Positions 31,201 through 56,382 of a stretch of DNA of 64,000 nt are shown piece by piece. Below the pieces are notes generated by a model, which did not search any database, had not been told where the DNA came from, and worked only from the letters and a program-made list of their open reading frames with translations. The DNA comes from Trypanosoma brucei (Eukaryota): positions 1,440,001-1,504,000 of the forward strand of contig CP000067.1 in the NCBI GenBank assembly GCA_000002445.1, in the 5' to 3' direction. Positions within the stretch are counted from its first letter, which is position 1; each line of letters starts with the position of its first letter. A program made the position numbers and the translations under genes.

Positions 31201-34200
31201 CAAAACGAGGCGAAGAAGCCTAGGAATAATCTGGGAGAGTGCAAGGAAATGCTCACAAGGCCCAAAGAACAACCAGTTACAAACTGGTATAAGTGACACA
31301 TTTGCCTCTATCACTATAGGAAGAAAGATTTGACCCTGCCATTGGGAAGTGGTGGAAAATGCGACACTCCAGTGGGAAGCAGTGAATATGGCGATGAAGG
31401 GATAAGACTGGGAGAAGGAAATGCACGAAGGTGCCTCTTGCGCACGAATACTGAGTTTCTGAAACACCAGCTAAAACGACGCGTAGAAACCCGCCGTCAA
31501 GGGTGCAAGGACAGGGCCACGAGACTGGAAGAAAGCGATGAAAATAGTTTCCGTGGAGAGGGTGGAAAAAAGGAACGCTAAAACGGCGGAGGAGCAAAGA
31601 AGAGAGACCATAATTTGCCCTTGCCCTACCAAAGCATACCCAACGTCGGTGTCGCCAAAGTCTCATACCTCCAAACTTCATCCATATAATAAAGAGGGGG
31701 CCACAACGGCCGAGGGCGCGGGGGAAAGGACCGCGGACGACAAGGATACCAGGGGCGTGGAACGCGAAAATACGGCAAGCAGCAAAGGTAGCGTTTTTCG
31801 GTTCCACCACTGCCATGAAACTTGTCGTAAGCATCCGCAACCTCGCCAATACGTTGAGTCCAAACGCCGGGAGGCCATGAAGACATCTTAAAAGCGGGGA
31901 AAAATTATGGGAAGTTCAGTGGAGACGATCAAAAGATGTAAGGGCGGGGAACCGTAGAGGTGTGGAAATTGAGGGGACAGCGGGGGAAAATGTCAGGTCA
32001 GAGGAATACGCCGCCGAACACGCTGAAATCCAAATGCGGAAGGGATTTTGTGACGACCCATACGGGAGGCAGAGAGAGGATACGGGAACAAATTACTACA
32101 AAATAACCATCGAAGCAATGAGAAATACGGTGGGGCTTACCAAAGAGGGCGTGGTCAACCTTCAGGTGCAACATACAGGACGTGCTTGCGTGGTCTGACA
32201 AGGCGGTGAAGGAACGTGAAATATATCCCTGACTTCCGACGAAACAAGAGGCAGCGATGGATATCACAAAGTTTCAAATAGGAGACCGAGGAGCATACAA
32301 CGCTGACATGGCGACATGGCGAAGGTCGACGAGCAATGTAAGCGCGGAGCATGACTGAACATTTGCATGGCAGAAAGGCTTCGTCAGACACAGATGCAGA
32401 AAGAAAATGATGCGGCAGAGGTTAAGGACCAAGTAAAACACGACACAGCATATGGGGGGAAATGTCAAGCAAGATCTGTTGTGTAATTTCTTTTTCAATA
32501 AAATTGGAAGTTATGTTGTGTGGACGGTGAGTATGATATGCGAGGAGGGCAGTTGCGGAAAGGCTGAATGAAAATGACTGCTGTTGTGCTCCGTCGGGCA
32601 AAGCCGCTGCTGGCTCAGAAGATATAGCAAAAGAATATCGTAAATTCATGAATAGCACATACAACCTCAAAGTATGCGGCAAGAATTCTGACGGCAAAGC
32701 CGCCACCAGCACGGTAAAAGACTGCAACCCTCAAAACCATACCACAGTTATGATATGATTTCCCGCCCAATATGACAGTATACTTTTTGACATGCAGGAC
32801 CTGAAGAAAAGGGAGATAATAGATGAGTAAAAGACAGTAAATCAAGAAGTTGAAGAAACAAAGGTGATAGTTGCTAGAAACACCTCACGAAAGCCGGAGA
32901 GCCTTCGCGGATTCAGTATGTCCTACTTGATGCAGGGGGCGGTAATCTAACGCACACACGGTAGCACGATCCTGGAATTGTCATCGCCCCAGGAACAACT
33001 ACGGATGGAGGCACAAAGAGGTGAAACATAACAACGGAAAGCAGGCGGCGTTCAGGGTACTATTTGAAACTCCTCAGACAAGCCAGACTTACGTGGTGCA
33101 AAAACAAAAAATAGTGCACAGTCGGGAAGGGAAGTGAAGGGAGGTTCGCAACAACGGAAGAACAGAATACCGAGAGACGATCAGGCACTTCCTCCAATAC
33201 AAGAAACTCGTGCAATTCATCATGATATAGCTTCCAGCATTCAGTTCAGAAGGACAGTTAAGCCACAAAACAACGGCCACATAGACACAGGCGAGAAACA
33301 GTAAAACCCAGAGGGTGACAAAACATCTCGTTGCCAAGCGACCGAAACAAACCGAAATGTTGTGCCACTAAACGGGGATTAAGGTTCACTCGGCACTAAA
33401 GAATATATGCAGGGTAGCAGGAACCTGCATACGAATACACATGAAGGTAGGGGGAACGTTCTACTACTTGCTTGACAATTCTGTGGCCAAGCTGCTGAAG
33501 CTGTTCTCAAGGAACTCGGCACATGGAGAGTAAATGTACAGGAAGAGGGGGGAAAAGTTTCTCTGGAAGTGGTTGTCCGTTTCGGGAGTCAAACGTTGCT
33601 TAGGGTTCTGGATCTTTGAATATTCTTTAGAGATTATGACGGTCGCAAGCGTAGGTATGTTCTTCCGCTGTACCCTGGTCTAGTGGTCAAGTAGCGTCCG
33701 CGTCACAGATAGTACAGGGATCGGTCCCCGCGGCCGGCGAGTATTTAGCTTACACTAAGGATGAATCTGCCTCAACGTGGCGCTAGGGTTCAGGAACAGA
33801 AAAGAAATAAACTGGGAAGTCAAATGTTCCATCCAAACGGCGGCCGCAACACCGGATCTGACGCGCCCGCTCCGTGGGGAGAGAACTATTACTAAGTATT
33901 CCACGGTCCAGCGCCCTGCTCTGGTGTGGGAACCCTAATCCCTTATACAACTTCCGTCCGGGGAGGCAGATGGATATGGTAAACATGGTTCAAACGCAAC
34001 GTGGGAGGATCGAACGGGCGCCAAATGGAGACCGACCCCCTAGACACACGCACATACGGTCACCCAGCCGTGGGTGTCAATTCTCCAAGAAAAAAACAGG
34101 TGGTTTTAGTGGGTAGAAATGACAATCTCCAGAGCTGACCCCCACACTACCACGTTATCGTGGCGTGGTGTGCGTAAATGCATTTTCTCTTTGCCCTCGG

Positions 34201-37029
34201 GTGGACCGACTGCATGGTCCTGACGGTTGCGCGAGAGAAAATCAAATGAAAAAAATTGCTTTGTTCTTTGCGGTGCTTACCGATTTTTGGAGAAGTGCGG
34301 GTGTTAGGCCTGCCTGGCCATGTGTTTGTTCCGTTTAGAATGGTTGCATATTTTGGCGACGTTGAAGAAGCTGAACGTGTGGAGTTCTGTTGAGTTATAT
34401 TCTCGCGAGTATGGTGTACCAGACAAGTTACTTCGTTTGAGGCAGTCCTAGAGGCAGGGTGCGAGTTTGGAAGAAACAATTCTGGAGAGACTGAGGGTAG
34501 GGGACGTTGTTTTTGAAGGTAATTTCTTATCTATATAAGCCTTTTGTTCGCCGAGTATGTACCGGATAAGCTTCGTCAATCTTGAAGGTATTTAACAACC
34601 GCGGTGAGCGAGCTGTGGTTATTTAAGAGACTATTTTCGAAATCTGACGAAAGATGTGCCGTTTCCTTCGTCATTTCCTAAATCGATCTCATGCTGTAGC
34701 ACCCATTTCATACTTCAAATAAATTTTAGACGCCGCAGAGGAATATTATCGATTATTGAAGATCAAAATCAAAATTATGGAAGTCACTGTAGAAATATCA
34801 GATGTAAGACTACCGTGAAGGTGTGGGTGTTGGAGTGCCATCAATTTAATGCAGAAGGGGCAGAACGATGCAAAAAAAAAAATGTTAAGCGGTAGGCTGT
34901 AGTATGACTCAGCTTTAGAAGCGACGGTAAAGCAAAATAATCTGGGGAGTGCGTTAGATTAGAATGTTTTGCAAATACACGACACGTAGTGACATCAAAC
35001 TTTGCACTACCAAAGAAAAAAAAATAATAATAATAACAAATTAACGGCTTATCAAAACTAAGCCAAATAGCCTAGCAACAACAGAAGGATATGCCTTGTA
35101 GACAAAACTTCAAACTTTAGACGTATAACCATATTGATAAGACATATTCTGAAGCTCCGTTACTTCCAAACGTGCAAGGTGCACTGAAGGGTTTAAAAAT
35201 CAAAAGTATGCGCCGCCTGGAGATGGTGGCTGTCCTGCCGATACTACGTTAGTTGGAATCGTTGGCTCACTGTGAGGTGGAAAGCCAACCAGAAGAAGCA
35301 AGCGGCGAATATAACGCAAACACATATGAAGGAGTGATCGCAACTAAACCAGCCTACCCAGATAAAGAAGTCTCTGAATGATACAGCAAAGAATACAAGG
35401 TTTATCTTGATGGACTAACAAGACAAACTTACATGAGACGCAACAACTGCCCGAGGAAACAGGAAGCCTAGAGTTCAAATAACACAACGAATAACAAAGT
35501 GGGCAAAGTGAACTGGCATGCCTCAACCAACTGCAAAGCGTAACTCATAAGGACTTTTCGAACGTACAGCTAGAGCTCAGAAAGCATGCTGTACCTTATG
35601 GCGCACTAATGGAACCAGGCAGCAAGGCGACGAGGTACGGCAAAGGCCGTCACAAGCTGCATGCTCAAACAAGATAAACATAAGAGATGCCAAGGGGATG
35701 GGAAATTCTTGTAAAGTGGATATGTCTTAGGGAGCTGTTGGCATGATCTCAGGCACTAGAAGCCGAGTACAAAGGGACTTGCAATCACTGTGTGGTAATT
35801 ATAGTTTCTCTTGTTTCGCCGGCGGCGACCAACTAACGGACCTGAGCAAAAAGTGTGTCGATGGAGGAACGCAACTCAACCAAATCCCCATCGCCAACAT
35901 CAGGGAGAGAAGCAGAGACGCCTTTCCAACAAAGTTGGGTCACCAATCCACCGTGGCTCATGTACTGAGTGCATTCATTTCACCATTATGCTAAAATGTT
36001 TCCATCATCCATTTTATAAACTATCAGAATTTGGATAGAAAATATGCTAAAGTTTTAATGTTTTTTTTTTGGGGGGAGTTCGTGAAACTGTTGCATTCTA
36101 ATCGAGCTCTTTAAGATTTGCTTTCGTCTATTCTCCTCTATTTTCGCTATGGTCGCATGGTTTGAGCTCAAAAATAAGATTCGGAGAAAATTAAAAACTC
36201 GTCGAAAAACGAAATTTCGGTGATGATGAACATGGGTTTCTACGGTGGAGTCGACCTTTTAACATGTTGAACATATGAAAAACACAACCATTCAGAGTGA
36301 CAATTTACGTGTTTGAATTATTTCTATTGGATTAAAAGTTTAATATTCACTCTCATTTTCGTTTTTGAAGGGAAATGTTTTTAGACTAAATCGTTGAGAA
36401 CTGAGATTTTTTTTCTATTGCCACATACATAATACCTAACAGTTATGGCTTAATTGGATGCTAAGGTTATATTTGTGTAAAATGGAATAACTTAATTCCA
36501 AAAAAGTCACGATGTGACACTATATACTTGCATACAACCATGTCCCGGGGTGAATAATTGACGGCTTTCCACTAACACTGGTGGGGAAACAACATGACAG
36601 CGTGCAAGAAAAAAATTATAAAAGAGACAAACCGCCAGCTCTTATTTTTTTAAATGCGGGGACTAAGGGTGACATGCCATGTAGCGTTCGGAAAAGCAGG
36701 GGTGTTACACGTTGTGTCACGAAACTTTACTGAAAACTACAACGCAAATATCGCTAAGATATGATAACGGCAAGCTGATTTCAATTCTCGTAGCCTTGTA
36801 TGTCACAAACGTTGCTGACGTCCCGTAAACATAACATCTCCTCAGGGACCCGTGTATTAAGACATCTTTGGTTAAGTTGTTGAATTTGTTGTTAGGACAA
36901 CCGCCGTCTATTGCAGAACCCCAAATTACATCTATCACCTACAAATAAAAAGCCAAGTTCCAACCATCACCAACAACGAAGATAAAGTCACAAAAACAGC
37001 TCAACACATCCACGAAAGGAAAGGCACTA

Positions 37030-38559
37030 ATGGAAAGTCGATCCGATACCAAAGGAACGTCGCACATAGCTGTTGCAGCAGCCGTTCCAGTATTATTCAT
37101 GACGCTGATGAGGTGCGGCATGGCGCAAACAATAACGGAACCGTCTTCGGACAAAGTAACAAACCTCTGTACAGAGGCCAAGTATACAGCCCATCTGGCA
37201 GATCACATCGTAGCGGCGGCAGAAGAGCCGGAGCGCGAAATATCCGACATGCAAATTTATGCAGAGGCATGGAATCTCCTTGCCGCCAGCACAAACCAAA
37301 CAGACAAGCGTGCCGCGACATATGCCCTTGCTGCGTACATGTCCGCCGCGGCGGCAAAAGCAAAGCAGCTGCAAAACGGGAAATACAAAGCAGCAGTCTT
37401 GGCCGCTACCTACCTGCAAAGGAGATCAGCGCTGACACGAACATTGCAAGCTATGCGTGTAAAAGGCAAGACGGCTGTGGGACAGTTCACTAAAAAGCAG
37501 GGCGAAGAGGCATCATGTTCACACAAGGAAACGCCGACTTTAAGCGACGAAGGGGATTGCGGGCGACAGGATAATGCCATCAACCATCCTGAGTCAATTG
37601 CCATAGATTTAAGGACAGCGACTCACATCAAACTGGTACATGGCAGTAAGCTAAGACCACTGGAGTTAACGCACGAAGCTGATGTAAGAGAGACGACACC
37701 ATCGGAGCAAGCGCAAGTGAAAGCCACAGGTTGCAAGGCCGTGCTAAGAAGCGACTTCTATGTTACATTCATAGCATCAACTACAAAAAAGGAAGACAAA
37801 ACTGGAGTAACAGCTATTAAGATATTCGCGGGCGACGATGCAAATACAAGTTGTGCTGAGCTCAAAGACGCCACGAAGAAATCAGAAAAGGATAACGACC
37901 TACTGATCAACAAAATCTGCACCTACATAACAAAACCCGATCCGCAGATTATAACCATATCCAGTTTGACGCCAGCCATGTTAGCAAACACAACGGCAGT
38001 CCAAGTGGCGTTCAGAAGCTTCGTTCATGCAGCAACCGGTAAAGCGCCAAGCGACGCCGAGATTGAAATGCAACTTCAAAAACTTTACGGAGGGGACAAG
38101 CAACACTTCAAAAGAGACTTCGTGACAATTCTGACAACAAAGAATATGACATACCACACGGGCTCAGGATTTGTAACTGAAACATTCCTTGATGCAGCTA
38201 AAAACAACCACGCCCACAAGGTGCTGATCTATCTAAAAGGTCAAAGAGCGGCAGCACAGGCAAAACAACCAAGGACAAACGAGAGTGAAATCAACGGCCC
38301 GGTCTGCGGAGGTGAGGGCCAAGAGGAGTGCAAATTGGATGAAAAGAAAGACCCGGAGAAACCGAACGGAACTCAAATGCGGAAATGGCCTAAAGCACTC
38401 CAGTGGATGATCACACGACAAGGAGGAAATTGCAAAACAATACAGCAAGAAGATTGTAAAGAAGACTGTACATGGGATGAGGGAGCTTGTGACGGCGCAG
38501 TTGGCATTTCTGCTTCGATGAATATTTCTCTGTTCATGGCATTTTTGCTTCTAGCATAA
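37030..38559 (+). CDS. Variant surface glycoprotein-like gene with an A-type N-terminal domain and an atypical C-terminal domain (VSG / VSG-related family), copy A
   Basis: The 509-aa ORF has a signal peptide (…AVAAAVPVLFMTLMRCGMAQ) and Ala-rich long-helix segments (AEAWNLLAASTNQTDKRAATYALAAYMSAAAAKAKQ). The Cys-rich C-terminal module is CGGEGQEEC…CKTIQQEDCKEDCTWDEGAC. The hydrophobic GPI-type tail is SASMNISLFMAFLLLA. It ends short and is not the canonical 17- or 23-aa T. brucei VSG GPI signal. Confidence 0.8.
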   Translation: MESRSDTKGTSHIAVAAAVPVLFMTLMRCGMAQTITEPSSDKVTNLCTEAKYTAHLADHIVAAAEEPEREISDMQIYAEAWNLLAASTNQTDKRAATYALAAYMSAAAAKAKQLQNGKYKAAVLAATYLQRRSALTRTLQAMRVKGKTAVGQFTKKQGEEASCSHKETPTLSDEGDCGRQDNAINHPESIAIDLRTATHIKLVHGSKLRPLELTHEADVRETTPSEQAQVKATGCKAVLRSDFYVTFIASTTKKEDKTGVTAIKIFAGDDANTSCAELKDATKKSEKDNDLLINKICTYITKPDPQIITISSLTPAMLANTTAVQVAFRSFVHAATGKAPSDAEIEMQLQKLYGGDKQHFKRDFVTILTTKNMTYHTGSGFVTETFLDAAKNNHAHKVLIYLKGQRAAAQAKQPRTNESEINGPVCGGEGQEECKLDEKKDPEKPNGTQMRKWPKALQWMITRQGGNCKTIQQEDCKEDCTWDEGACDGAVGISASMNISLFMAFLLLA

Positions 38560-39779
38560 AAACTTATTGGAAATACTTTATTGTAGCAAACATTAATTTT
38601 TTTCTGGAAATATCTTAATGTAGTGGAATATGCATTTTTATGGAAAGATCTTATTATACGAAACCGTATCTTTGTTGAATTATCTTGGATAAATTTACAT
38701 TCATCTTGGAAATATTTTATACAATTCTTAAATGTGCGTTTGTATTTCAACGCTTTTTGCAAACATGTGAAGACTTTGAGAGATCTTTTTTGTTGTTGTA
38801 CAAATTTGATGTTTGAATGTAAAGTGATATGTTGATGGAGTGTCAAAAGTGGGTGCCATTAGGATTTTTACTATTATGGTTTATTCAATTAATTTTATGT
38901 TTACCTTTGAAAATGTAAATATATGCAAATCTTCTCTAGTGTTGTGGCCGGGGAGTATAATGTAGTATGGTAACGGTTTACGAATGAGAAATGAGTGCTA
39001 TTCTGAAATTTTCTGTTTCGGTTTATTTGGTGTATCGTATGGATGTTAGTCAAGGTTATAAAAGTAATGGTAAGAGTGGTTGGGGTGAGGATTAGGATGT
39101 TGGTATATTTGAATAACAAGGTCTTCCAAAGGAGGAAGAGAGATAGACAAGGCAGTGAAGGGCTGCAGAGGTGTTGTGGCATGCATGGAAATGATATAGA
39201 TCTCTAAGGGAGTATCAGGTATGATTTTACTCGGGAAGGGGTTGCTGCTCATACTTGTGATTATATATTTCCTGAAGCGGTCAAATGTTTCACAACTTCC
39301 ATTAGAATAAAGTTTAGGAGAAGCAATAGGATGAGGGAAGCCCCCGCTGAATTGTTTGGCGGATATACAGTTTGATGAGTGGAAGGTTCGTTGTAGAAGC
39401 ACGCGTGCACGTCTCGCCCAATTGGTGAGAGAGCAGTAATGGCCGGATGCATTTGCCGTGAGTAACAACCCCAACAATGGATACAAAGGAGTTATTGTTC
39501 ATCATCGAGGTGTGACAACAGTAGTGGTGCATATATTTGTCGGCCCCTCGGATATGGAAAAGGGATCAAACGGTGCCGCTGGCATTGGAGGTTTTGTTGG
39601 TAATTCCTTAGAAATATCTTGCTGAAATTTGTTGAAGTTATTGAGACAACTATCTTTTCTATGTTACCCTACTATTTCATGTATTGCTTACTGGTAACAA
39701 CATAAAGTCCAATTTTTATCAACAGGGAAGTCAAGGACACCAAGGCAACGCAGCAACGTGGAAAAAGCTGGAGGAACTA

Positions 39780-41306
39780 ATGGAAAGTCGACCCGATACC
39801 AAAGGAATGTGCCACGCGACAGTGGCAGCAACTGTTCCAGTATTATTCATGACGCTGATGAGGTGCGGCATGGCGCAAACAGTAACGGAACCGTCTTCGG
39901 ACAAAGTAACAAACCTCTGTACAGAGGCCAAGTATACGGAATATTTGGCGAGTCGAATCGTAGCGGTAGCAGAGAGGCAGGAGCGCGAAATATCCGACAT
40001 GCAAATTTATTCAGAGGCATGGAATCTCCTTGCCGCCAGCACAAACCAAACAGACAAGCGTGCCGCGACATATGCCCTTGCTACGTACATGTCCACCGCG
40101 GCGGAAACAGCAAGGCGGGCACACGCTGGAAAATACAAAGCAGCAGTGGCAACTGCGAAGTTGCTACACAGGAGGTCGGCGCTAACGCGTACGTTGCTAA
40201 CGATGAGAATCCGGGGAAAGACAATAGTTGGAATAAGCAAAGAGGCCAACGGCATAGGAATATGCCCTGGTGAAGCAACACCAACATTAAGCGGCGACAG
40301 TAGTTGCGCGCACCGAACCAATGACAGCAACCAACCAGAAGGTATTGCTGTGAACTTGAAGGCAGCGACGCACATAAAATTGCTAAATAGCAGTGCACTA
40401 AGACCTCGGGGGTTAACCCATCTAGTTGAGATAAAAGAAACGAAGTGGCCAGCAAGCAGAGAAGCATTAGTCGAGAGGTGCGGGGGCTTGTTGGGAGGTG
40501 ACCATTATGTTAAATTCGAAGCATCAACCACAGGAGAAGACAGCAAAATCATAGTAGAGCCGATTAAGATATTTGAGGGTGACGATGCGGAGAAAAACTG
40601 CGCTGTCGTACAGAAAGAATCTATGAAATCAGAAAAGGACAATGATCTACTGATCAACAAAATATGCACCTACATAACAATACTCGACCCGCAGATTATA
40701 ACCATATCCAGTTTGACGCCTGCCATGTTAGCAAACACGAGCACAGTCCAAATGGCGTTCAAAAGCTTCGTTCATGCAGCAACCGGTAAAGCACCTAGCG
40801 ACGGCGAAATCGAGTTGCAACTTAAGAGCCTTTACGGTGGGGACAAGCAAAACTTCACCAGAGACTTCGTAAAAATTCTGTGGACGAAGAACGTGACATA
40901 CCACACGGGCGCAGGATTCAAAACTGAGACGCTCCTTGATGCGGTTAGAAACAAAAACGCACAGAGGGCTCTAATCTATCTGGAAGATCAAAGACCAGCA
41001 GAGGAGTCAAAACAGACACAAACGGACGAGAGTGAAATCAACGGCCCGGTCTGCGGAGGTGAGGGCCAAGAGGAGTGCAAATTGGATGAAAAGAAAGACC
41101 CGGAGAAACCGAACGGAACTCAAATGCGGAAATGGCCTAAAGCACTCCAGTGGATGATCACACGACAAGGAGGAAATTGCAAAACAATACAGCAAGAAGA
41201 TTGTAAAGAAGACTGTACATGGGATGAGGGAGCTTGTGACGGCGCAGTTGGCATTTCTGCTTCGATGAATATTTCTCTGTTCATGGCATTTTTGCTTCTA
41301 GCATAA
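39780..41306 (+). CDS. VSG-like gene, copy B
   Basis: The ATG at 39780 (MESRPDTKGMCHATVAATVPVLFMTLMRCGMAQ…) is homologous to the start of copy A. The track ORF starts 32 codons upstream at 39684, but that stretch has no homology. The last ~95 aa and the 3' flank are identical to copies A and C. Confidence 0.8.
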   Translation: MESRPDTKGMCHATVAATVPVLFMTLMRCGMAQTVTEPSSDKVTNLCTEAKYTEYLASRIVAVAERQEREISDMQIYSEAWNLLAASTNQTDKRAATYALATYMSTAAETARRAHAGKYKAAVATAKLLHRRSALTRTLLTMRIRGKTIVGISKEANGIGICPGEATPTLSGDSSCAHRTNDSNQPEGIAVNLKAATHIKLLNSSALRPRGLTHLVEIKETKWPASREALVERCGGLLGGDHYVKFEASTTGEDSKIIVEPIKIFEGDDAEKNCAVVQKESMKSEKDNDLLINKICTYITILDPQIITISSLTPAMLANTSTVQMAFKSFVHAATGKAPSDGEIELQLKSLYGGDKQNFTRDFVKILWTKNVTYHTGAGFKTETLLDAVRNKNAQRALIYLEDQRPAEESKQTQTDESEINGPVCGGEGQEECKLDEKKDPEKPNGTQMRKWPKALQWMITRQGGNCKTIQQEDCKEDCTWDEGACDGAVGISASMNISLFMAFLLLA

Positions 41307-42526
41307 AAACTTATTGGAAATACTTTATTGTAGCAAACATTAATTTTTTTCTGGAAATATCTTAATGTAGTGGAATATGCATTTTTATGGAAAGATCTTA
41401 TTATACGAAACCGTATCTTTGTTGAATTATCTTGGATAAATTTACATTCATCTTGGAAATATTTTATACAATTCTTAAATGTGCGTTTGTATTTCAACGC
41501 TTTTTGCAAACATGTGGAAATTTTGAGAGATCTTTTTTGTTGTTGTACAAATTTGATGTTTGAATGTAAAGTGATATGTTGATGGAGTGTCAAAAGTGGG
41601 TGCCATTAGGATTTTTACTATTATGGTTTATTCAATTAATTTTATGTTTACCTTTGAAAATGTAAATATATGCAAATCTTCTCTAGTGTTGTGGCCGGGG
41701 AGTATAATGTAGTATGGTAACGGTTTACGAATGAGAAATGAGTGCTATTCTGAAATTTTCTGTTTCGGTTTATTTGGTGTATCGTATGGATGTTAGTCAA
41801 GGTTATAAAAGTAATGGTAAGAGTGGTTGGGGTGAGGATTAGGATGTTGGTATATTTGAATAACAAGGTCTTCCAAAGGAGGAAGAGAGATAGACAAGGC
41901 AGTGAAGGGCTGCAGAGGTGTTGTGGCATGCATGGAAATGATATAGATCTCTAAGGGAGTATCAGGTATGATTTTACTCGGGAAGGGGTTGCTGCTCATA
42001 CTTGTGATTATATATTTCCTGAAGCGGTCAAATGTTTCACAACTTCCATTAGAATAAAGTTTAGGAGAAGCAATAGGATGAGGGAAGCCCCCGCTGAATT
42101 GTTTGGCGGATATACAGTTTGATGAGTGGAAGGTTCGTTGTAGAAGCACGCGTGCACGTCTCGCCCAATTGGTGAGAGAGCAGTAATGGCCGGATGCATT
42201 TGCCGTGAGTAACAACCCCAACAATGGATACAAAGGAGTTATTGTTCATCATCGAGGTGTGACAACAGTAGTGGTGCATATATTTGTCGGCCCCTCGGAT
42301 ATGGAAAAGGGATCAAACGGTGCCGCTGGCATTGGAGGTTTTGTTGGTAATTCCTTAGAAATATCTTGCTGAAATTTGTTGAAGTTATTGAGACAACTAT
42401 CTTTTCTATGTTACCCTACTATTTCATGTATTGCTTACTGGTAACAACATAAAGTCCAATTTTTATCAACAGGGAAGTCAAGGACACCAAGGCAACGCAG
42501 CAACGTGGAAAAAGCTGGAGGAACTA

Positions 42527-44053
42527 ATGGAAAGTCGACCCGATACCAAAGGAATGTGCCACGCGACAGTGGCAGCAACTGTTCCAGTATTATTCATGAC
42601 GCTGATGAGGTGCGGCATGGCGCAAACAGTAACGGAACCGTCTTCGGACAAAGTAACAAACCTCTGTACAGAGGCCAAGTATACGGAATATTTGGCGAGT
42701 CGAATCGTAGCGGTAGCAGAGAGGCAGGAGCGCGAAATATCCGACATGCAAATTTATTCAGAGGCATGGAATCTCCTTGCCGCCAGCACAAACCAAACAG
42801 ACAAGCGTGCCGCGACATATGCCCTTGCTACGTACATGTCCACCGCGGCGGAAACAGCAAGGCGGGCACACGCTGGGAAATACAAAGCAGCAGTGGCAAC
42901 TGCGAAGTTGCTACACAGGAGGTCGGCGCTAACGCGTACGTTGCTAACGATGAGAATCCGGGGAAAGACAATAGTTGGAATAAGCAAAGAGGCCAACGGC
43001 ATAGGAATATGCCCTGGTGAAGCAACACCAACATTAAGCGGCGACAGTAGTTGCGCGCACCGAACCAATGACAGCAACCAACCAGAAGGTATTGCTGTGA
43101 ACTTGAAGGCAGCGACGCACATAAAATTGCTAAATAGCAGTGCACTAAGACCTCGGGGGTTAACCCATCTAGTTGAGATAAAAGAAACGAAGTGGCCAGC
43201 AAGCAGAGAAGCATTAGTCGAGAGGTGCGGGGGCTTGTTGGGAGGTGACCATTATGTTAAATTCGAAGCATCAACCACAGGAGAAGACAGCAAAATCATA
43301 GTAGAGCCGATTAAGATATTTGAGGGTGACGATGCGGAGAAAAACTGCGCTGTCGTACAGAAAGAATCTATGAAATCAGAAAAGGACAATGATCTACTGA
43401 TCAACAAAATATGCACCTACATAACAATACTCGACCCGCAGATTATAACCATATCCAGTTTGACGCCTGCCATGTTAGCAAACACGAGCACAGTCCAAAT
43501 GGCGTTCAAAAGCTTCGTTCATGCAGCAACCGGTAAAGCACCTAGCGACGGCGAAATCGAGTTGCAACTTAAGAGCCTTTACGGTGGGGACAAGCAAAAC
43601 TTCACCAGAGACTTCGTAAAAATTCTGTGGACGAAGAACGTGACATACCACACGGGCGCAGGATTCAAAACTGAGACGCTCCTTGATGCGGTTAGAAACA
43701 AAAACGCACAGAGGGCTCTAATCTATCTGGAAGATCAAAGACCAGCAGAGGAGTCAAAACAGACACAAACGGACGAGAGTGAAATCAACGGCCCGGTCTG
43801 CGGAGGTGAGGGCCAAGAGGAGTGCAAATTGGATGAAAAGAAAGACCCGGAGAAACCGAACGGAACTCAAATGCGGAAATGGCCTAAAGCACTCCAGTGG
43901 ATGATCACACGACAAGGAGGAAATTGCAAAACAATACAGCAAGAAGATTGTAAAGAAGACTGTACATGGGATGAGGGAGCTTGTGACGGCGCAGTTGGCA
44001 TTTCTGCTTCGATGAATATTTCTCTGTTCATGGCATTTTTGCTTCTAGCATAA
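42527..44053 (+). CDS. VSG-like gene, copy B', an exact duplicate of copy B
   Basis: The protein is identical to that of 39780-41306. It is part of a 2,747-bp tandem duplication. Confidence 0.8.
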   Translation: MESRPDTKGMCHATVAATVPVLFMTLMRCGMAQTVTEPSSDKVTNLCTEAKYTEYLASRIVAVAERQEREISDMQIYSEAWNLLAASTNQTDKRAATYALATYMSTAAETARRAHAGKYKAAVATAKLLHRRSALTRTLLTMRIRGKTIVGISKEANGIGICPGEATPTLSGDSSCAHRTNDSNQPEGIAVNLKAATHIKLLNSSALRPRGLTHLVEIKETKWPASREALVERCGGLLGGDHYVKFEASTTGEDSKIIVEPIKIFEGDDAEKNCAVVQKESMKSEKDNDLLINKICTYITILDPQIITISSLTPAMLANTSTVQMAFKSFVHAATGKAPSDGEIELQLKSLYGGDKQNFTRDFVKILWTKNVTYHTGAGFKTETLLDAVRNKNAQRALIYLEDQRPAEESKQTQTDESEINGPVCGGEGQEECKLDEKKDPEKPNGTQMRKWPKALQWMITRQGGNCKTIQQEDCKEDCTWDEGACDGAVGISASMNISLFMAFLLLA

Positions 44054-45238
44054 AAACTTATTGGAAATACTTTATTGTAGCAAACATTAATTTTTTTCTG
44101 GAAATATCTTAATGTAGTGGAATATGCATTTTTATGGAAAGATCTTATTATACGAAACCGTATCTTTGTTGAATTATCTTGGATAAATTTACATTCATCT
44201 TGGAAATATTTTATACAATTCTTAAATGTGCGTTTGTATTTCAACGCTTTTTGCAAACATGTGGAAATTTTGAGAGATCTTTTTTGTTGTTGTACAAATT
44301 TGATGTTTGAATGTAAAGTGATATGTTGATGGAGTGTCAAAAGTGGGTGCCATTAGGATTTTTACTATTATGGTTTATTCAATTAATTTTATGTTTACCT
44401 TTGAAAATGTAAATATATGCAAATCTTCTCCGGTGTTGTGGCCGGGGAGTATAATGTAGTATGGTAACGGTTTACGAATGAGAAATGAGTGCTATTCTGA
44501 AATTTTCTGTTTCGGTTTATTTGGTGTATCGTATGGATGTTAGTCAAGGTTATAAAAGTAATGGTAAGAGTGGTTGGAGTGACGATTAGGATGTTGGTAC
44601 ATTTGAATAACAAGGTCTTCCAAGGGAGGAAGAGATATGTATAAAGTACTGAAGGGCTGCAGAGGTGTTGTGTTAGGCATGATTGTGCACGGGAAGGAGT
44701 TGCTGCCGAAGCTTCTGATATACATGTGTTTCCAGAAACGATCAAATGCTGCGGAGCTTACGTGGGAAGAAAGTTTCGGAAGAGTTATGGGATGAGGGAA
44801 ATTCCCACTGCATTGTTTGAGCAGATTCACAACATGATAAGTGGAAGGTTGGTTGGAGAAGTGCGCAGGTACGCCACACCCAGTTGGCAAGAGATTGCAA
44901 TAGTCGGGTGCATGCCGGGAGTGATGACCCCACTGATAGTCAGGTCGCTAATAACGCTGAGGTTTGGAAAAAGCACACCTGAATTGATTTATCGGTGTAT
45001 CGAAGATCGAAAACATGATTAAGGCTCCCCAGTTACTGCATTCCCTCAAGGGGTTGCCGTTAAAAATATTTTTGTGCAAACTGTTTAAGTTATTATTGGG
45101 ACAACCGCTCTCTATTGCGGAACCACAAATTTCATCTATGACATACCTATAAATAAAAAGCCAAGTTCCAATCATCATCAACAACGAAGATAAAGGCACA
45201 AAGGCAACGAAACACATTACACGGAGGGAAAGGAGCCG

Positions 45239-46768
45239 ATGCAAGTTCAACGCACTACCAAAGAAGTGTTGCACAAAGCTGTTGCAGCAGCCGTGCCCGT
45301 GTTATTCATGACGCTGATGAGGTGCGGCATGGCGCAAACAGTAACGGAACCGTCTTCGGACAAAGTAACAAACCTCTGTACAGAGGCCAAGTATACAGCC
45401 CATCTGGCAGATCACATCGTAGCGGCGGCAGAAGAGCCGGAGCGCGAAATATCCGACATGCAAATTTATGCAGAGGCATGGAATCTCCTTGCAGCCAGCA
45501 CAAACCAAACAGACAAGCGTGCCGCGACATATGCCCTTGCCACGTACATGTCCACTGCGGCGGCAAAAGCAAAGCAGCTGCAAAACGGGAAATACAAAGC
45601 AGCAGTCTTGGCCGCTACCTACCTGCAAAGGAGATCAGCGCTGACACGAACATTGCAAGCTATGCGTGTAAAGGGACAGTCAGGAGCGGGACAAGTCACT
45701 AACCGACAAGGCGTCATCTCATCATGTTCACACAAGGAAACACCGACGTTAAGCGACGAAGGGGATTGCGGGCGACAAGGCAGTGATGCCAACCATCCAG
45801 AATCAATTGCCGTAAATTTAAGGACAGCGACTCACCTCAAACTGTTAGACAGCAGCAGGCTAAGACCGCTAGCGTTAAATCACTTAGCCGAAGTAGAAGG
45901 AACAGCGCCACCAGCAAAAACGGAAGTACAAGCCGAAGGCTGCAAGGCTGTGATAAGCATTGGCTATTATGCTAAATTCACAGCATCGACAAAAGAAAGT
46001 GACGACAACAGTGAAGTCAAAGCCATTAAGATATTCGCGGGTGACAATGCAAGTACAAATTGCGCTCTTCTGCACAACGCCGAAAGGAAATCAGAAAAGG
46101 ATAACGACCTACTGATCAACAAAATATGCAACTACATAAACAAACCTGATCCTCAGATAATAACCATATCCAATTTGACGCCTGCCATGTTAGCAAACAC
46201 GAGCACAGTCCAAATGGCGTTCAAAAGCTTCGTTCATGCAGCAACCGGTAAAGCACCTAGCGACGGCGAAATCGAAAACCAGCTTAAGAGCCTTTACGGA
46301 GGGGATGAGGTGACATTTACCAATGACTTCATAAAAATTCTGTGGACGAAGAACGTGACGTACCACACTGGCTCAGGATTCGTAACTGAGACATTTCTTG
46401 ATGCAGCTAAAAACGAAAACGCGCACAAGGTGCTCATCTATCTAAAAGGTCAAAGAGCGGCAGCACAGGCAAAACAACCAAGGACAAACGAGAGTGAAAT
46501 CAACGGCCCGGTCTGCGGAGGTGAGGGCCAAGAGGAGTGCAAATTGGATGAAAAGAAAGACCCGGAGAAACCGAACGGAACTCAAATGCGGAAATGGCCT
46601 AAAGCACTCCAGTGGATGATCACACGACAAGGAGGAAATTGCAAAACAATACAGCAAGAAGATTGTAAAGAAGACTGTACATGGGATGAGGGAGCTTGTG
46701 ACGGCGCAGTTGGCATTTCTGCTTCGATGAATATTTCTCTGTTCATGGCATTTTTGCTTCTAGCATAA
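45239..46768 (+). CDS. VSG-like gene, copy C, mosaic relative of copies A and B
   Basis: The 509-aa ORF shares N-terminal and C-terminal blocks with copy A and internal blocks with copy B, for example LTPAMLANTSTVQMAFKSFVHAATGKAPSDGEIE. Its 5' flank is homologous to that of copy A. Confidence 0.8.
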   Translation: MQVQRTTKEVLHKAVAAAVPVLFMTLMRCGMAQTVTEPSSDKVTNLCTEAKYTAHLADHIVAAAEEPEREISDMQIYAEAWNLLAASTNQTDKRAATYALATYMSTAAAKAKQLQNGKYKAAVLAATYLQRRSALTRTLQAMRVKGQSGAGQVTNRQGVISSCSHKETPTLSDEGDCGRQGSDANHPESIAVNLRTATHLKLLDSSRLRPLALNHLAEVEGTAPPAKTEVQAEGCKAVISIGYYAKFTASTKESDDNSEVKAIKIFAGDNASTNCALLHNAERKSEKDNDLLINKICNYINKPDPQIITISNLTPAMLANTSTVQMAFKSFVHAATGKAPSDGEIENQLKSLYGGDEVTFTNDFIKILWTKNVTYHTGSGFVTETFLDAAKNENAHKVLIYLKGQRAAAQAKQPRTNESEINGPVCGGEGQEECKLDEKKDPEKPNGTQMRKWPKALQWMITRQGGNCKTIQQEDCKEDCTWDEGACDGAVGISASMNISLFMAFLLLA

Positions 46769-47519
46769 AAACTTATTGGAAATACTTTATTGTAGCAAAC
46801 ATTAATTTTTTTCTGGAAATATCTTAATGTAGTGGAATATGCATTTTTATGGAAAGATCTTATTATACGAAACCGTATCTTTGTTGAATTATCTTGGATA
46901 AATTTACATTCATCTTGGAAATATTTTATACAATTCTTAAATGTGCGTTTGTATTTCAACGCTTTTTGCAAACATGTGGAAATTTTGAGAGATCTTTTTT
47001 GTTGTTGTACAAATTTGATGTTTGAATGTAAAGTGATATGTTGGTGGAATGTCGAAAATGGTTGCTATTTAGAATATTTTTGCTATTATGGTTTATTCGA
47101 AGAAATTTATGTTTACCTTTGAAGATGTGAAAATGTTTAAATGTTTTCAAATGTTTTTGACTTGTGGGTATAACGTGGTAAAGTGATAGGGGTGTGAAAA
47201 ATGAGTGTGATTATGAAAACTTGCCATTTTGGTTTATTTTTTTGTAATAGATATTAAGAGTAGTTTAAGGTTATGATATTAATAGCAGTATAGTAATAGT
47301 GTGTGTGCCATATAAGTGCACATACTAACATTATGGTAAGAGTGGTGGTGCAGAACGACTGGAGACAAAATAGAAGCAGTTAAGCTGATGCCAAGGGCAC
47401 AGTGGGAGTTAGCAAGTGAGTGGGAGAGGAAGAGGACGAGGAGGATATTATTAAAACAAAAGCAGAAACACAGGTAGATGGAGAGAAAAGGTAATGAAAT
47501 ATGCGCAGTTTTTTTCATT

Positions 47520-49880
47520 GTACATTTATCCTGCTCGTGCTGCGGTAGACTAGCTACTGCCCCTGTGGCTCTGCAAATTAGCAGGGGATGTTTAGCGCAA
47601 CCGCAATTTCATCTTCACTTGATCCAATGATACCTTGAAACTGATTGAGTATTCTGTAGATTTAGCTTCACGGGTACGTTTACGCATGGCTCTTGCAGTG
47701 CCAACCCCTAAAGACTTCGCTGCCGCAGAGTGGTGGTCAGTGGAATCCAACTCCGTTGGCGATCGGTGCCTCTTCACGGCTCAAGTGGGCCCAGATTTTT
47801 TCTCTAAGATTGGGGGGGGGGAGATGGTCTCTCTAGCTTGAAGAGCTCCTTCAGGAAGCTGGCTAGTTGTGTGCTGAAGAACACTTCCCCGTTCTTCAGG
47901 GTTTCTAGACCATGCTTTTCCCTTTAGCACTTGCAAGCTTGGGCATTCAAAGAGGTGCGCCGCAGCCTCGTTACACTCAACCTTCAGCAAGTAATGCTCA
48001 TTCTCCTTCCTCAGTTGGCCCTGCTTCGCCTGTATGTGCATCGTCAGGAACTTCTTTAGTGTGCAATTCATTGGGCAGTATGGGCACTGGAGTGATCTTT
48101 TCAGGAGAGGTGTCACCGCTACCGTGCCGTCCTTTAGTTTTCGTTTCACTGTCGTGGCGTGCGCGTATGCCAAACCAGTGAGCACCACTGCTTGTACACA
48201 CTGCTGTTTCCACCGCACACATTGTCCATTCCCTCTTTGCCTTCTGTGTGGCGGACTACCCGAAGACGCTTAGGCGGTCTTTCCCCATTGTCCCTTCCTG
48301 CTGACTCCAATGACTCACTCACCTCACTCTGTGCCTGAGCCTCTGCTCTCACTACCTTTCGCTTCGGCTTCACGCGTGGCTGAGGACGCAATGACTCGTC
48401 GTGACCCAGGTGCTTGGTCGGTATGCGTTGCGGTAACCATCTGTAATGATACTGCTTTCTACAAATGGAACACGCCACTGTAACTGACTGCTTCGCCACG
48501 TCCGAGTCTTCAGAGTTCGTGTTCGAGGTTGGTTCGTACTTGTGCCTGGTGGGCCATGTCTTGCTTTTGAGGACGCGTTGGCACCTGTAGCATACAAATT
48601 CCCTTTTATCCTGCTCCTCCTGCTCTGCCTCGCCATCACTACCGGACACGTCTTGTGGCTTCATAGCGCCGCGCGTTAACTGCTTTTCCGTGTGCTTCTG
48701 CAGCCACGCGTATACAGTGTACTTAATTGCGCACCAGCGGCACTTGAACGCTTTGCCATCATCGGCCCCATAATCCTCCCTAGCCCTTTTCGGACGCTCC
48801 TCCACGGCTGCCACTATATCTGAAAGTTGCTGTGCCATATGCTTCACGAGCAGCCCACGCCGCTCAAAGACATCGCACACATGTGACATCTGTACCCATT
48901 CTTATGCGTCTGCGCCGCACGCTTAGCTTTGTTGGTCAGAGCTAATGCACAATCCCTCTCCAGACCATGAATCTTCAGTAGGTGCACCACGCCAGCCTGT
49001 TGCCGCGCGCAAACCACGTTGCACAATGAGCAAATGATCGGGTCGATCAGCCTGGTTGCTATCCCAGGATCTGGTGCGTTCGCATTGTCCGCTGCTGACT
49101 CCGCCTCCGGGCGCTCTTCTGCTGTGTCGCTGCGTGGTTCCTGTGTGTCGCACCGTATGCATCCAAGCTGGTCCGTCTTGCGTGTGAGCGCCCTGTGGAG
49201 CCGTCCGAAATGCTTCGAGGTGCCTGTTCCGAACTGCGCCAGCACCGACTCGCCCAGACGCTCCAGCCTTGTGTGCTTCGGTGCGGCCCGAACGTAGTCG
49301 AGTAGCGCACTCCGATGCGTACGCTGCATGCGGCCCTTCTTGAAGGCCTTGTACATCGCATTCCAGACCTGTCACCACACACCCGTCGCTATGTCAGTGA
49401 TCCACGCGGGATACAACTACGGCTTTGCGTTTCCCTGCTCAGCTGCCTTGTCAGCTGCTTCATTTCGTGATGTTGGTAGCCAGCAACGCTAAAGCAAGCC
49501 GCCTCTCCAGGCGTCATTCTTGTCTCGCTCAACAGACAAAAGGCGATCCGCTCATCAACAAGGGTTTTGTGGAGTGCTAATCTCTTTCCTTGAGTTAGCC
49601 CGGCGCAGTTCCACTGCATCCCGCACAACGACGGGCCGGGATTCTCTTCCACATCACCGGACAGCAGCATCTTAGTGCGGATGATACTGCTGATGGCACG
49701 CTGGCACGTGCCCAGGGACCGACAAATGAAAAACGGTGTCCCAGCAAGACGCTGCTGATCCCTGTGCTGTATGATGCCGTAGCCGGAGCACAGCAGTGTT
49801 CCCCATGAGAAGAACGCTGCTGGCTCTTGGCTTCCCCCGATGATACGGGGTACTTGACCCTGGCACCACGTTGAGGTGGC
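47520..49880 (-). mobile_element. Internally deleted ingi-type non-LTR retrotransposon remnant (DIRE/ingi-like): 5' end with 2A peptide and start of the AP-endonuclease domain, fused to a region of multiple C2H2 zinc fingers
   Basis: The minus-strand sequence from ~49873 reads GGTGCCAGGGTCAAGTACCCCGTATCATCGGGGGAAGCCAAGAGCCAGCAGCG…, which is ingi/RIME-like 5' sequence. ORF 49389-49886 encodes …LLSGDVEENPGP (2A), then QWNCAGL…FCLLSETR (the L1-type endonuclease N-terminal motifs), then a stop. ORFs 48844-49356, 48146-48889 and 47781-48218 carry repeated C2H2 fingers (CSLCNVVCARQQAGVVHLLKIH, FKCRWCAIKYTVYAWLQKH, LQCPYCPMNCTLKKFLTMH). No reverse-transcriptase domain is present. The 3' boundary is uncertain. 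Confidence 0.65.
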
Positions 49881-56260: not shown

Positions 56261-56382
56261 CTTATCACCTTATAACTTAGCAGTCATATACAACATTAAT
56301 ACCAAAAGCTGAAATATATATATATTTTTTACAAATTCTCTAGAAAAAACTCCATAAATTTTACAAAATGAAGCAAAAATAG

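What the first reader, a model, noticed from the sequence alone, without database searches (positions are those of the whole stretch)
37030..46768. Mosaic block structure among the clustered VSG-like genes (segmental gene conversion)
Copy A and copy C are near-identical over the first ~150 aa (…TEPSSDKVTNLCTEAKYTAHLADHIVAAAEEPEREISDMQIYAEAWNLLAAS…). They also share homologous 5' flanks. Copy B shares that N-terminal block only in part but shares a different internal block with C: LTPAMLANTSTVQMAFKSFVHAATGKAPSDGEIE…LYGGD and …ILWTKNVTYHTG. A has divergent versions of those blocks (TTAVQVAFRSF…, …ILTTKNMTYHTG). All copies converge again over the C-terminal domain. This patchwork is the signature of segmental conversion between neighbouring array genes. 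It is a direct view of mosaic-gene formation within a single locus.
Basis: seen in the sequence. Interest (0 to 1): 0.6.

Follow-up and report, generated by a model that had tools for sequence, protein, structure and literature searches.

The report
Patchwork exchange among tandem VSG-like genes
Four neighbouring VSG-like surface-protein genes on Trypanosoma brucei chromosome 4 are real recombination patchworks, but this is a clear example of a well-known process in a locus that is already annotated, not a new mechanism.

Summary
The window is T. brucei TREU927 chromosome 4. The four genes are the annotated "VSG, atypical" cluster, described in the literature as Tb927.4.5400, Tb927.4.5420 plus an identical fourth copy, and Tb927.4.5430.

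There are three gene types: A, B (two copies differing at 4 of 2747 bases) and C. Divergence between them falls into discrete blocks:
- A=C at 98-100% over CDS nt ~64-432.
- A hypervariable core at 59-74% identity.
- A 102-nt block where B and C are identical.
- A second A=C block.
- A 415-bp tract identical in all four copies, covering the last 281 nt of the CDS and 134 nt of 3' flank.

Synonymous divergence ranges from 0 to above 1 within one gene pair. With the T. equiperdum orthologue as fourth taxon, the three possible groupings get 32, 31 and 29 informative sites, and these are spatially clustered. Home-made versions of the 3SEQ, PHI and GENECONV recombination tests, and a BIC segmentation, all reject uniform divergence (p ≤ 5e-4).

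The best explanation is patchwise gene conversion, homogenisation of the 3' end, and one recent unequal crossover that duplicated B. The hypervariable cores are older lineages shared with other strains. The genes lack 70-bp repeats and the VSG 16-mer and are reported to be expressed in all life stages. So this is paralogue evolution, not mosaic formation during antigenic variation.

The parts
37030..38559 (+). Gene A, atypical VSG, 509 aa (100% identical to P0002, annotated 'VSG, atypical' in TREU927)
   Evidence: ORF; identification; profile match to VSGsur, E=4e-12,
39780..41306 (+). Gene B1, atypical VSG, 508 aa (P0005)
   Evidence: Pfam PF10659 VSG C-terminal domain, E=3.4e-6
42527..44053 (+). 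Gene B2, encoding the same protein as B1 (one synonymous difference, 40130 A against 42877 G)
45239..46768 (+). Gene C, atypical VSG, 509 aa (P0001, 100%)
   Evidence: PF10659, E=8.6e-6
37093..37461 (+). Block where A=C (98-100% identity; counterpart C 45302-45670). In the sub-segment 37354-37461 there are 38 B-unique sites and no A- or C-unique sites. dS(A-C) is 0.08 here, against 0.52 in the next block.
37462..37878 (+). Hypervariable core (counterparts B1 40212-40625, C 45671-46087). Identity is A-C 74%, B-C 61%, A-B 59%. The nearest relatives are in other strains.
40712..40813 (+). 102-nt run identical between B and C (also B2 43459-43560 and C 46174-46275). It lies inside a finely interleaved segment (A 37879-38211) with alternating runs of B=C and A=B sites. 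The inferred direction is B to C.
   Evidence: (runs test p=5e-5; longest B=C run of 12 sites, p=5.5e-4)
38212..38280 (+). Second A=C block (C 46421-46489): 20 B-unique sites and no A- or C-unique sites. A and C are identical from 38227 to 38693.
38279..38693 (+). 415-bp tract identical in all four copies (B1 41026-41440, B2 43773-44187, C 46488-46902). It covers the last 281 nt of the CDS and 134 nt of 3' flank. The homogenised segment extends to 38832 with only 3 differences in 552 bp. The T. equiperdum and T. b. gambiense orthologues differ from it in every 60-nt window (82-98% identity, mostly 2-10% divergence).
38560..41306 (+). First 2747-bp tandem unit (A-B1 intergenic region plus B1)
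   Evidence: 4 differences from the second unit
41307..44053 (+). Second 2747-bp tandem unit (B1-B2 intergenic region plus B2)
41522..41684 (+). Interval holding the inferred unequal-crossover point. The B1 3' flank matches the B2 and C flanks at +211 to +215 and matches the A flank from +378 onward.
36878..37024 (+). 5' flank of A, homologous to the 5' flank of C (45082-45233, 81.6%). B1 and B2 have a different 5' flank.
39048..39772 (+). Array-specific intergenic segment (repeated at 41795-42519; a diverged version follows B2). No counterpart in the single-copy loci of T. equiperdum or T. b. gambiense, or elsewhere in the window.

Best explanation
The four genes are a small tandem family of VSG-like ('atypical VSG') genes. 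It has evolved by three overlaid homologous-recombination processes.
1. Old, deeply diverged N-terminal-domain lineages (an A/C type and a B type) pre-date the split of T. brucei strains.
2. Short non-allelic gene-conversion patches, roughly 70-400 bp, have been copied between neighbouring copies. Examples are B into C around aa 311-350, and A with C at aa ~21-146 and ~400-417.
3. The 3' end (the C-terminal domain plus about 270 bp of 3' flank) has been fully homogenised within TREU927. One recent unequal crossover inside that identical 3' region then duplicated the B unit, turning A-B-C into A-B-B-C.

Shown: discrete blocks, conflicting groupings between blocks, block-wise synonymous divergence, identity that extends into non-coding DNA, and the chimeric B1 flank. 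Inferred: the direction of the individual conversions, conserved motifs acting as resolution points, and the order of events.
For: Block structure:
- Sliding identity shows sharp switches.
- BIC segmentation gives 8 segments, against 1 in all 20 permutations. Some segments carry only one class of variable site: 38/0/0 in 37354-37461, 20/0/0 in 38212-38280 and 57/0/0 in 38833-39040.

Conflicting groupings:
- With the T. equiperdum orthologue as fourth taxon, the three incompatible splits get 32, 31 and 29 informative sites, and these are spatially clustered. PHI gives p=2e-4.
- 3SEQ-like tests give p=5e-5. GENECONV-like fragments give p ≤ 5e-4 for A-C, B-C and A-B.

Not explained by constraint alone:
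- dS within a single gene pair runs from 0 to 1.05 between blocks.
- The all-identical tract continues 134 nt past the stop codon.

Concerted evolution:
- The TREU927 copies share C-terminal-domain states found in no family member from any other strain (PNGTQ, ITRQ, NISLF).
- In that tract they differ from the T. equiperdum and T. b. gambiense orthologues in every 60-nt window (82-98% identity, mostly 2-10% divergence) while being 0% diverged from each other.

Old lineages:
- In the hypervariable core the nearest relative is a protein from another strain.

Unequal crossover:
- The two units differ at 4 of 2747 positions, and the B1 flank is chimeric.

The same kind of patch replacement is seen outside TREU927:
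- The T. equiperdum and T. b. gambiense orthologues are 100% identical over nt 41-340 and 98-100% over nt 941-1240, but only 55-75% identical over nt 641-880.
- EATRO1125 VSG-195 looks like a chimera of EATRO1125 VSG-4121 and the T. equiperdum gene.

The framework matches published work on T. brucei tandem arrays, which describes unequal crossing-over and gene conversion acting together (PMC1855330).
Against: - With only three distinct paralogues and one or two outgroups, donor and recipient cannot be assigned rigorously.
- The recombination tests are my own permutation versions, not the published programs. They assume sites are exchangeable along the gene.
- Alignment in the 50-60% identity core is less certain, although the codon alignment needs only a one-codon indel.
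- No family DNA from Lister 427 or EATRO1125 could be retrieved. Exchange with donors outside the array, or allelic recombination between diverged haplotypes followed by unequal crossover, could therefore account for some blocks.
- The origin of the ~725-bp array-specific spacer is unexplained.
Confidence: 0.85

Rival explanations
1. There was no recombination. The blocks reflect only uneven selective constraint along a VSG-like protein, with conserved helices and C-terminal domain and fast-evolving exposed loops.
For: dN/dS is below 1 in almost every multi-codon block (0.13-0.55), apart from the 15-17-codon blocks nt 1-45 and nt 1198-1248. The most variable block is the central part of the N-terminal domain. 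Some motifs are invariant across the family.
Against: Synonymous divergence itself varies from 0 to above 1 between blocks of one gene pair. Identity continues into the non-coding 3' flank. Which pair is closest changes from block to block, and the incompatible 2:2 splits are spatially clustered. Constraint cannot change which pair is closest.
Confidence: 0.02
2. Tandem duplication and unequal crossing-over alone made the pattern. Each gene would be a simple chimera with a single breakpoint, and no internal conversion patches would be needed.
For: The B1/B2 duplication and the chimeric B1 flank are classic products of unequal crossover. The homogenised 3' end could have spread through repeated unequal crossovers. 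T. equiperdum has a single copy with an A-type far upstream flank and a C-type downstream flank.
Against: The closest partner switches at least 5-7 times within one 1.5-kb gene, and there are two-sided internal patches, for example the 102-nt B=C run flanked by segments that are not B=C. Each unequal crossover gives one breakpoint and changes copy number, so many successive events would be required.
Confidence: 0.08
3. Most of the patches came from outside the array. They would be from family members elsewhere in the genome, or from meiotic recombination between diverged allelic arrays in the sexual T. brucei population, not from the immediate neighbours.
For: In 21-29 of 49 protein windows the nearest relative of A, B or C is a protein from another strain. 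The T. equiperdum and T. b. gambiense orthologues differ by replaced patches although each locus has one copy. The flanking region is itself 1-15% diverged between subspecies, which suggests old haplotypes.
Against: The protein search found only these three protein types of the family in TREU927, all on the same chromosome. The A=C, B=C and all-copy blocks carry TREU927-specific states, and in them a neighbour is the closest sequence known.
Confidence: 0.25
4. The mosaic is an artefact of mis-assembling a 2.75-kb tandem repeat from Sanger reads.
For: Near-identical tandem units are hard to assemble. The DAL972 assembly of the same locus contains a spurious gap.
Against: The patches (70-400 bp) are shorter than a typical Sanger read (own knowledge) and are flanked by sequence only 60-75% identical, which places reads uniquely. 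Independent sequences from T. equiperdum, T. b. gambiense, Lister 427 and EATRO1125 show the same kind of mosaicism. B1 and B2 retain 4 distinguishing sites.
Confidence: 0.03

Closest known systems
Concerted evolution of T. brucei tandem gene arrays by unequal crossing-over plus gene conversion (Jackson 2007, PMC1855330)
   Same: Paralogues within one genome are more alike than orthologues over part of their length. Non-coding flanks are homogenised. Variation and homogenisation coexist. Copies with diverged flanks escape homogenisation. This locus shows all of these features.
   Different: Here homogenisation is confined to the 3' third of the unit, while the N-terminal core keeps lineages shared across strains.
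Mosaic VSG formation during antigenic variation (Hall 2013, PMC3708902; Smith 2026, PMC13233330)
   Same: Templated, homology-dependent, patchwise replacement between members of one VSG family. Junctions lie in stretches of shared sequence. In the experimental system the donor is left intact and the process depends on RAD51 and BRCA2.
   Different: Those events happen somatically in the expressed VSG at the active expression site, and most of the insertions detected are about 46 bp. Here the patches are fixed in silent-type genomic copies and are 70-550 bp. The genes lack the 70-bp-repeat motif and the 16-mer and are reported to be expressed in all life stages.
VSG/ESAG 'islands' and atypical VSGs of core chromosomes (Jackson 2010, PMC2854126; Jensen 2009, PMC2771046)
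   Same: This is one of those loci. [quoted passage not shown] The gambiense genome paper mentions a brucei-specific segmental duplication of an atypical VSG. The single-copy T. b. gambiense locus fits that statement.
   Different: [quoted passage not shown] At this locus the orthologues of T. equiperdum, T. b. gambiense and TREU927 differ by replaced patches. I could not confirm that the duplication in their Supplementary Fig. S1 is this locus.
VSGsur (PDB 6z7c), closest relative with a solved structure
   Same: A profile of the family aligns over residues 6-436 with E=4e-12, so the N-terminal domain is a true VSG-type domain.
   Different: The sequence relationship is distant. The Pfam A-type N-terminal model scores below its cut-off (15.7 against 22.1 bits). 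No usable 3D model was obtained (pLDDT 30.7).

Membership tests
Trypanosome variant surface glycoprotein (VSG) genes | VSG-type N-terminal domain | tested here: met
   A family profile matches VSGsur (6z7c) at E=4e-12 over residues 6-436. Pfam PF00913 gives only 15.7 bits, below its 22.1 cut-off, so the domain is divergent.
Trypanosome variant surface glycoprotein (VSG) genes | VSG C-terminal domain, and a hydrophobic C-terminal tail of the GPI-signal type | tested here: met
   PF10659 scores above its cut-off for B (27.8 bits) and C (26.5 bits). A is identical to them from aa 417. The hydrophobic tail ...SLFMAFLLLA is visible in the sequence. GPI addition itself was not tested.
Trypanosome variant surface glycoprotein (VSG) genes | Conserved 16-mer TGATATATTTTAACAC in the 3' UTR | tested here: not met
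   With up to 2 mismatches the only matches are at 52735, 60145 and 61167 (minus strand), beside the conventional VSGs. There are none in the 3' flanks of the four genes.
Trypanosome variant surface glycoprotein (VSG) genes | 70-bp repeats upstream (the substrate for transposition into expression sites) | tested here: not met
   The core motif TGTTGTGAGTGTG, recalled from memory, matches exactly only at 52514 and 56092 on the minus strand. In the array there is one weak 2-mismatch hit, on the wrong strand, at 44822. Tandem Repeats Finder shows no repeat array upstream of the genes.
Tandem array under concerted evolution | Paralogues within a genome are more alike than orthologues from related genomes | tested here: met
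   This holds for the 3' third only. A, B and C are 100% identical there. The T. equiperdum and T. b. gambiense orthologues differ from them in every 60-nt window (82-98% identity, mostly 2-10% divergence). TREU927-specific residues are shared by all copies. It does not hold in the N-terminal core.
Tandem array under concerted evolution | Homogeneity extends to non-coding and synonymous sites, so purifying selection on the protein cannot explain it | tested here: met
   dS = 0 over nt 1249-1527, and identity continues 134 nt past the stop codon.
Segmental (non-allelic) gene conversion | Adjacent segments support incompatible relationships, with significant spatial clustering | tested here: met
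   Informative splits of 32, 31 and 29 sites, clustered. PHI p=2e-4. Eight BIC segments. Significant fragments.
Segmental (non-allelic) gene conversion | Two-sided internal patches without a change in copy number, and non-reciprocal transfer | tested here: inconclusive
   Two-sided patches are present, for example B=C at 40712-40813. Non-reciprocity and the absence of an accompanying crossover cannot be established from one haplotype.
Mosaic VSG formation in antigenic variation | The new mosaic is assembled in the transcribed VSG of the active expression site during infection | not testable with these tools
   The window is a chromosome-internal or subtelomere-boundary locus, not an expression site. 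The literature reports Pol II-type constitutive expression. No infection-time data are available.

The most novel reading that the evidence does not exclude
The cluster is not part of the antigenic-variation archive. It would instead be a constitutively expressed, VSG-derived surface protein family, comparable in kind to other VSG-derived proteins such as the ESAG6/7 transferrin receptor, SRA and TgsGP (my own knowledge). Its exposed central region would be diversified at the population level by patch exchange between strains and copies, while the C-terminal domain and 3' UTR are kept uniform by conversion, perhaps to preserve shared anchoring and mRNA regulation. Copy number (1 in T. equiperdum and T. 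b. gambiense; 4 in TREU927; the protein search returned 3-5 family proteins each for Lister 427 and EATRO1125) and patch content would then be strain-specific functional variation, for example in host interaction.
Probability: 0.15. Interest if true: 0.55.

Novelty: new member of a known kind. Interest (0 to 1): 0.3.

Why it matters
This is a compact, cleanly resolved example of how VSG-type genes diversify and homogenise at the same time in one 10-kb locus:
- old variable cores are retained;
- short patches are swapped between neighbours;
- the 3' end is fully homogenised;
- a datable unequal crossover is mapped to about 160 bp.

It qualifies the published statement that core-chromosome VSG islands are not exposed to frequent conversion. 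It could also serve as a small natural test bed for non-allelic recombination in T. brucei outside expression sites. It does not reveal a new mechanism.

Tried and rejected
- AlphaFold2 on the 11-sequence family alignment gave an unusable model (mean pLDDT 30.7). No fold search was run, and the blocks could not be mapped onto VSG lobes.
- DNA for the Lister 427 and EATRO1125 family members could not be retrieved. Comparison with other strains is therefore at protein level only.
- The supplementary text of the gambiense genome paper holds nothing on this locus.
- At first I read the DAL972 locus as a possibly collapsed multi-copy array because of its 101-N gap. I rejected this because the contig ends overlap by 331 nt at 99.7%.
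- I considered that the whole array is a recent TREU927 duplication of a single ancestral gene. I rejected this for the N-terminal cores: A-B identity falls to about 50-58% in the core windows (59% over the core segment as a whole), and B-type cores exist in other strains.
- I looked for a simple duplication junction (C-downstream joined to A-upstream) in the intergenic regions. None was found. The 39048-39772 spacer has no counterpart.
- Tandem Repeats Finder found only a trivial 12-nt repeat in each C-terminal domain.


Full report
**Identity of the locus**

The window comes from Trypanosoma brucei brucei TREU927. Gene C is 100% identical to an NCBI protein named "variant surface glycoprotein (VSG, atypical), putative", carried on a contig of 1,590,432 bp. 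Genes A and B match two further proteins from the same contig.

The surrounding layout is as follows:
- Housekeeping genes lie on the minus strand from 1.9 to 26.8 kb. They include kinases, CFAP43, a PP4R3-like protein and a biotin carboxylase.
- A gene-poor region runs from 27 to 37 kb.
- The four + strand genes follow.
- Retroelement remnants sit at 48-50 kb. The T. equiperdum locus has an RVT_1 hit at the matching place.
- Conventional A-type and B-type VSG genes lie on the minus strand from 51 kb onward.

Jensen et al. 2009 (PMC2771046) describe this cluster: Tb927.4.5400, Tb927.4.5420, a fourth gene identical to Tb927.4.5420, and Tb927.4.5430. They place it just 5' of the right-hand subtelomeric VSG cluster of chromosome 4, on the opposite strand, next to a strand-switch region with a transcription start. 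They report similar expression in all life stages. A search for these gene identifiers found only two papers, and neither deals with recombination.

**The observation**

The ORFs are A 37030-38559, B1 39780-41306, B2 42527-44053 and C 45239-46768. B1 and B2 are effectively one gene. The 2747-bp units 38560-41306 and 41307-44053 differ at four positions, and only one of these is in the CDS, where it is synonymous.

Pairwise nucleotide identity over gene plus flanks is 84.8% for A-C, 80.1% for A-B and 78.5% for B-C. It is very unevenly distributed. I ran a multinomial change-point analysis of the A/B/C site patterns over the gene plus 480 nt of 3' flank. It chose eight segments by BIC, while all 20 column permutations gave one segment. 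In A coordinates the segments are:

| Segment (A coordinates) | Pattern |
|---|---|
| 37030-37092 | A resembles B; C differs |
| 37093-37353 | A=C at 98% |
| 37354-37461 | A=C at 100%; B at 65%; 38 B-unique sites, none A- or C-unique |
| 37462-37878 | Hypervariable; 59-74% identity in all pairs |
| 37879-38211 | Interleaved runs of B=C and A=B sites |
| 38212-38280 | A=C; 20 B-unique sites only |
| 38281-38832 | All copies alike; 3 differences in 552 bp |
| 38833-39040 | A=B; 57 C-unique sites only |

The longest exact runs are 415 bp shared by all four copies (A 38279-38693, covering 281 nt of CDS and 134 nt of 3' flank), 467 bp shared by A and C, and 102 bp shared by B and C (40712-40813 against 46174-46275).

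The first ~15 codons of A are B-like, not C-like. The shared A/C 5' flank is only about 150 bp at 81.6% identity.

**Is it recombination or uneven constraint?**

Three lines of evidence point to recombination.

First, synonymous divergence differs by more than ten-fold between blocks of the same gene pair:
- A-C: dS is 0.08 (nt 46-435), 0.52 (nt 436-900), 0.76 (nt 1048-1197) and 0 (nt 1198-1527).
- B-C: dS is 0.43, 0.95, 0.23 (nt 901-1047), 0.53 (nt 1048-1197), 1.05 (nt 1198-1248) and 0.

Second, identity does not stop at the stop codon.

Third, which pair is closest changes from block to block. With the T. equiperdum orthologue (E) as a fourth sequence, the three incompatible splits AB|CE, AC|BE and BC|AE get 29, 31 and 32 informative sites. 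They are clustered along the gene; for example, the first 11 are all AB|CE.

My own permutation versions of standard tests agree:
- 3SEQ-like maximum descent, p = 5e-5, for C as a recombinant of A and B and for A as a recombinant of B and C.
- PHI, p = 2e-4.
- A runs test inside nt 850-1182, p = 5e-5, with a run of 12 consecutive B=C sites, p = 5.5e-4.
- GENECONV-like fragments, p ≤ 5e-4, for A-C, B-C and A-B.

These are home-made approximations that assume sites are exchangeable along the gene. The clustered incompatible splits are the most robust part of the evidence.

**Which blocks reflect exchange between neighbours?**

I aligned the three TREU927 proteins with ten relatives: the T. equiperdum and T. 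b. gambiense orthologues, three Lister 427 VSGs and five EATRO1125 VSGs.

In 20-residue windows, an array neighbour is the closest sequence at aa ~21-80 (A/C), ~311-350 (B/C), ~401-430 (A/C) and from ~450 to the end (all copies). In the C-terminal domain, A, B and C share residues seen in no other family member (PNGTQ, ITRQ, NISLF). These are the blocks best explained by exchange inside the TREU927 array.

The hypervariable core (aa ~131-290), and aa ~351-420 of B, behave differently. Their closest relatives are in other strains: B with Lister 427 VSG-438 and EATRO1125 VSG-137, and A and C with EATRO1125 VSG-1646, Lister 427 VSG-1767 and T. equiperdum. The A/C-type and B-type cores are therefore older than the strains.

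The B=C version of aa 311-350 (…STVQMAFKSF…) resembles relatives of the B lineage. The A version resembles the orthologues. I infer from this that B was the donor and C the recipient.

**The B duplication**

The A→B1 and B1→B2 intergenic regions are identical apart from three clustered sites. The B2→C intergenic region is the same for about 530 bp and then diverges. The B1 3' flank is a chimera. At +211 to +215 after the stop codon it carries the B2/C variant, and from +378 onward it carries the A-flank variant.

This is the expected product of an unequal crossover between the homogenised 3' regions of A and B on misaligned chromatids. It would convert A-B-C into A-B-B-C, with the crossover inside 41522-41684. 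This assumes that the three-base variant in the A flank is older than the duplication.

**Orthologous loci**

The T. equiperdum locus (L001) and the T. b. gambiense DAL972 chromosome 4 end (L002) each have one gene between the same flanks. The 101-N gap in DAL972 is spurious: the two contig ends overlap by 331 nt at 99.7%. The DAL972 gene also appears frameshifted near nt 1045.

This fits the remark of Jackson et al. 2010 about a brucei-specific segmental duplication of an atypical VSG, although I could not confirm that it refers to this locus.

The two orthologues are 100% identical over nt 41-340 and over nt 1301 to the end, and 98-100% identical over nt 941-1240. They are only 55-75% identical over nt 641-880. 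EATRO1125 VSG-195 looks like a chimera of EATRO1125 VSG-4121 (aa 1-~195) and the T. equiperdum gene (aa ~196-330). So patch replacement occurs across the species complex. That sits uneasily with the statement that conserved VSG islands are not exposed to frequent conversion.

The flanking 27-37 kb region is itself 1-15% diverged between TREU927 and these subspecies. Old haplotypes and allelic recombination may therefore contribute.

**Relation to known systems**

The proteins are true but divergent VSG homologues:
- A family profile matches VSGsur at E=4e-12.
- Pfam's VSG C-terminal domain scores above its cut-off for B and C.
- Pfam's A-type N-terminal model scores below its cut-off.

The genes lack the VSG 3'UTR 16-mer and the 70-bp-repeat motif. 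Both occur beside the conventional VSGs in the same window.

Mechanistically, the pattern is what Jackson 2007 described for T. brucei tandem arrays: unequal crossing-over and gene conversion acting together, with variation persisting. It also resembles templated mosaic VSG formation, which is homology-dependent, uses family-member donors, leaves the donor intact and requires RAD51 and BRCA2 (Smith 2026). That process, however, acts on the expressed VSG in the active expression site, and most of the insertions detected are about 46 bp. Here the patches are fixed in genomic copies and are 70-550 bp long.

**Verdict**

It overreaches in two ways: by attributing the whole patchwork to exchange between neighbours, and by equating it with mosaic formation in antigenic variation. 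The phenomenon is well known and the locus is already annotated, so novelty is modest. Interest is 0.3.

Noticed in passing
window 16393-18612 (minus strand): A biotin-carboxylase-type gene is split by a single in-frame stop codon. ORF 17797-18612 carries Biotin_carb_N and CPSase_L_D2 positions 2-86. ORF 16393-17790 continues with CPSase_L_D2 positions 91-208, Biotin_carb_C and Biotin_lipoyl. It could be a pseudogene, a sequencing error or a strain polymorphism.
   Followed up: partly
L002 11149-11249 (T. b. gambiense DAL972 chromosome 4 end): The 101-N assembly gap inside the orthologous gene is spurious. The sequences on either side overlap by 331 nt at 99.7%. The annotated 364-aa protein (P0011) ends early because of a frameshift near nt 1045.
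   Followed up: yes
window 27000-37000: The gene-poor region between the minus-strand core genes and the array is 1-15% diverged from T. equiperdum and T. b. gambiense in 500-bp windows. From my own knowledge, that is far more than usual between these subspecies. It may reflect old haplotypes or fast-evolving degenerate repeats.
   Followed up: no
window 39048-39772 and 41795-42519: An intergenic segment of about 725 bp is present only inside the array. It has no counterpart in the single-copy orthologous loci or elsewhere in the window, so the array junctions are not a simple join of downstream to upstream sequence. Its origin is unknown.
   Followed up: partly
window 38770-38774 against 41517-41521, 44264-44268 and the C flank: Three substitutions within 5 bp (A.G.C against G.A.T) are the only differences between the A flank and the B1 flank. 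This could be a micro-conversion or a complex mutation.
   Followed up: partly
window 48146-49886 (minus strand); L001 14919-15548: Retroelement-like ORF fragments lie immediately downstream of gene C. They are collinear with the T. equiperdum locus, where one carries a weak reverse-transcriptase hit. The homology between C's 3' flank and the 3' flanks of the other copies ends at 47239, upstream of these ORF fragments.
   Followed up: no
window 38373-38846, 41120-41593, 43867-44340 (minus strand): Repeated 157-aa antisense ORFs overlap the 3' end of genes A, B1 and B2. They are most likely by-products of the repeated unit and not genes.
   Followed up: no
window 51085-62767 (minus strand): Conventional VSG genes or fragments (PF13206 B-type at 57075-58052; PF00913 A-type at 61472-62767) lie here, with the canonical 16-mer at 61167 and near-matches at 52735 and 60145. 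This marks the start of the subtelomeric VSG array.
   Followed up: partly
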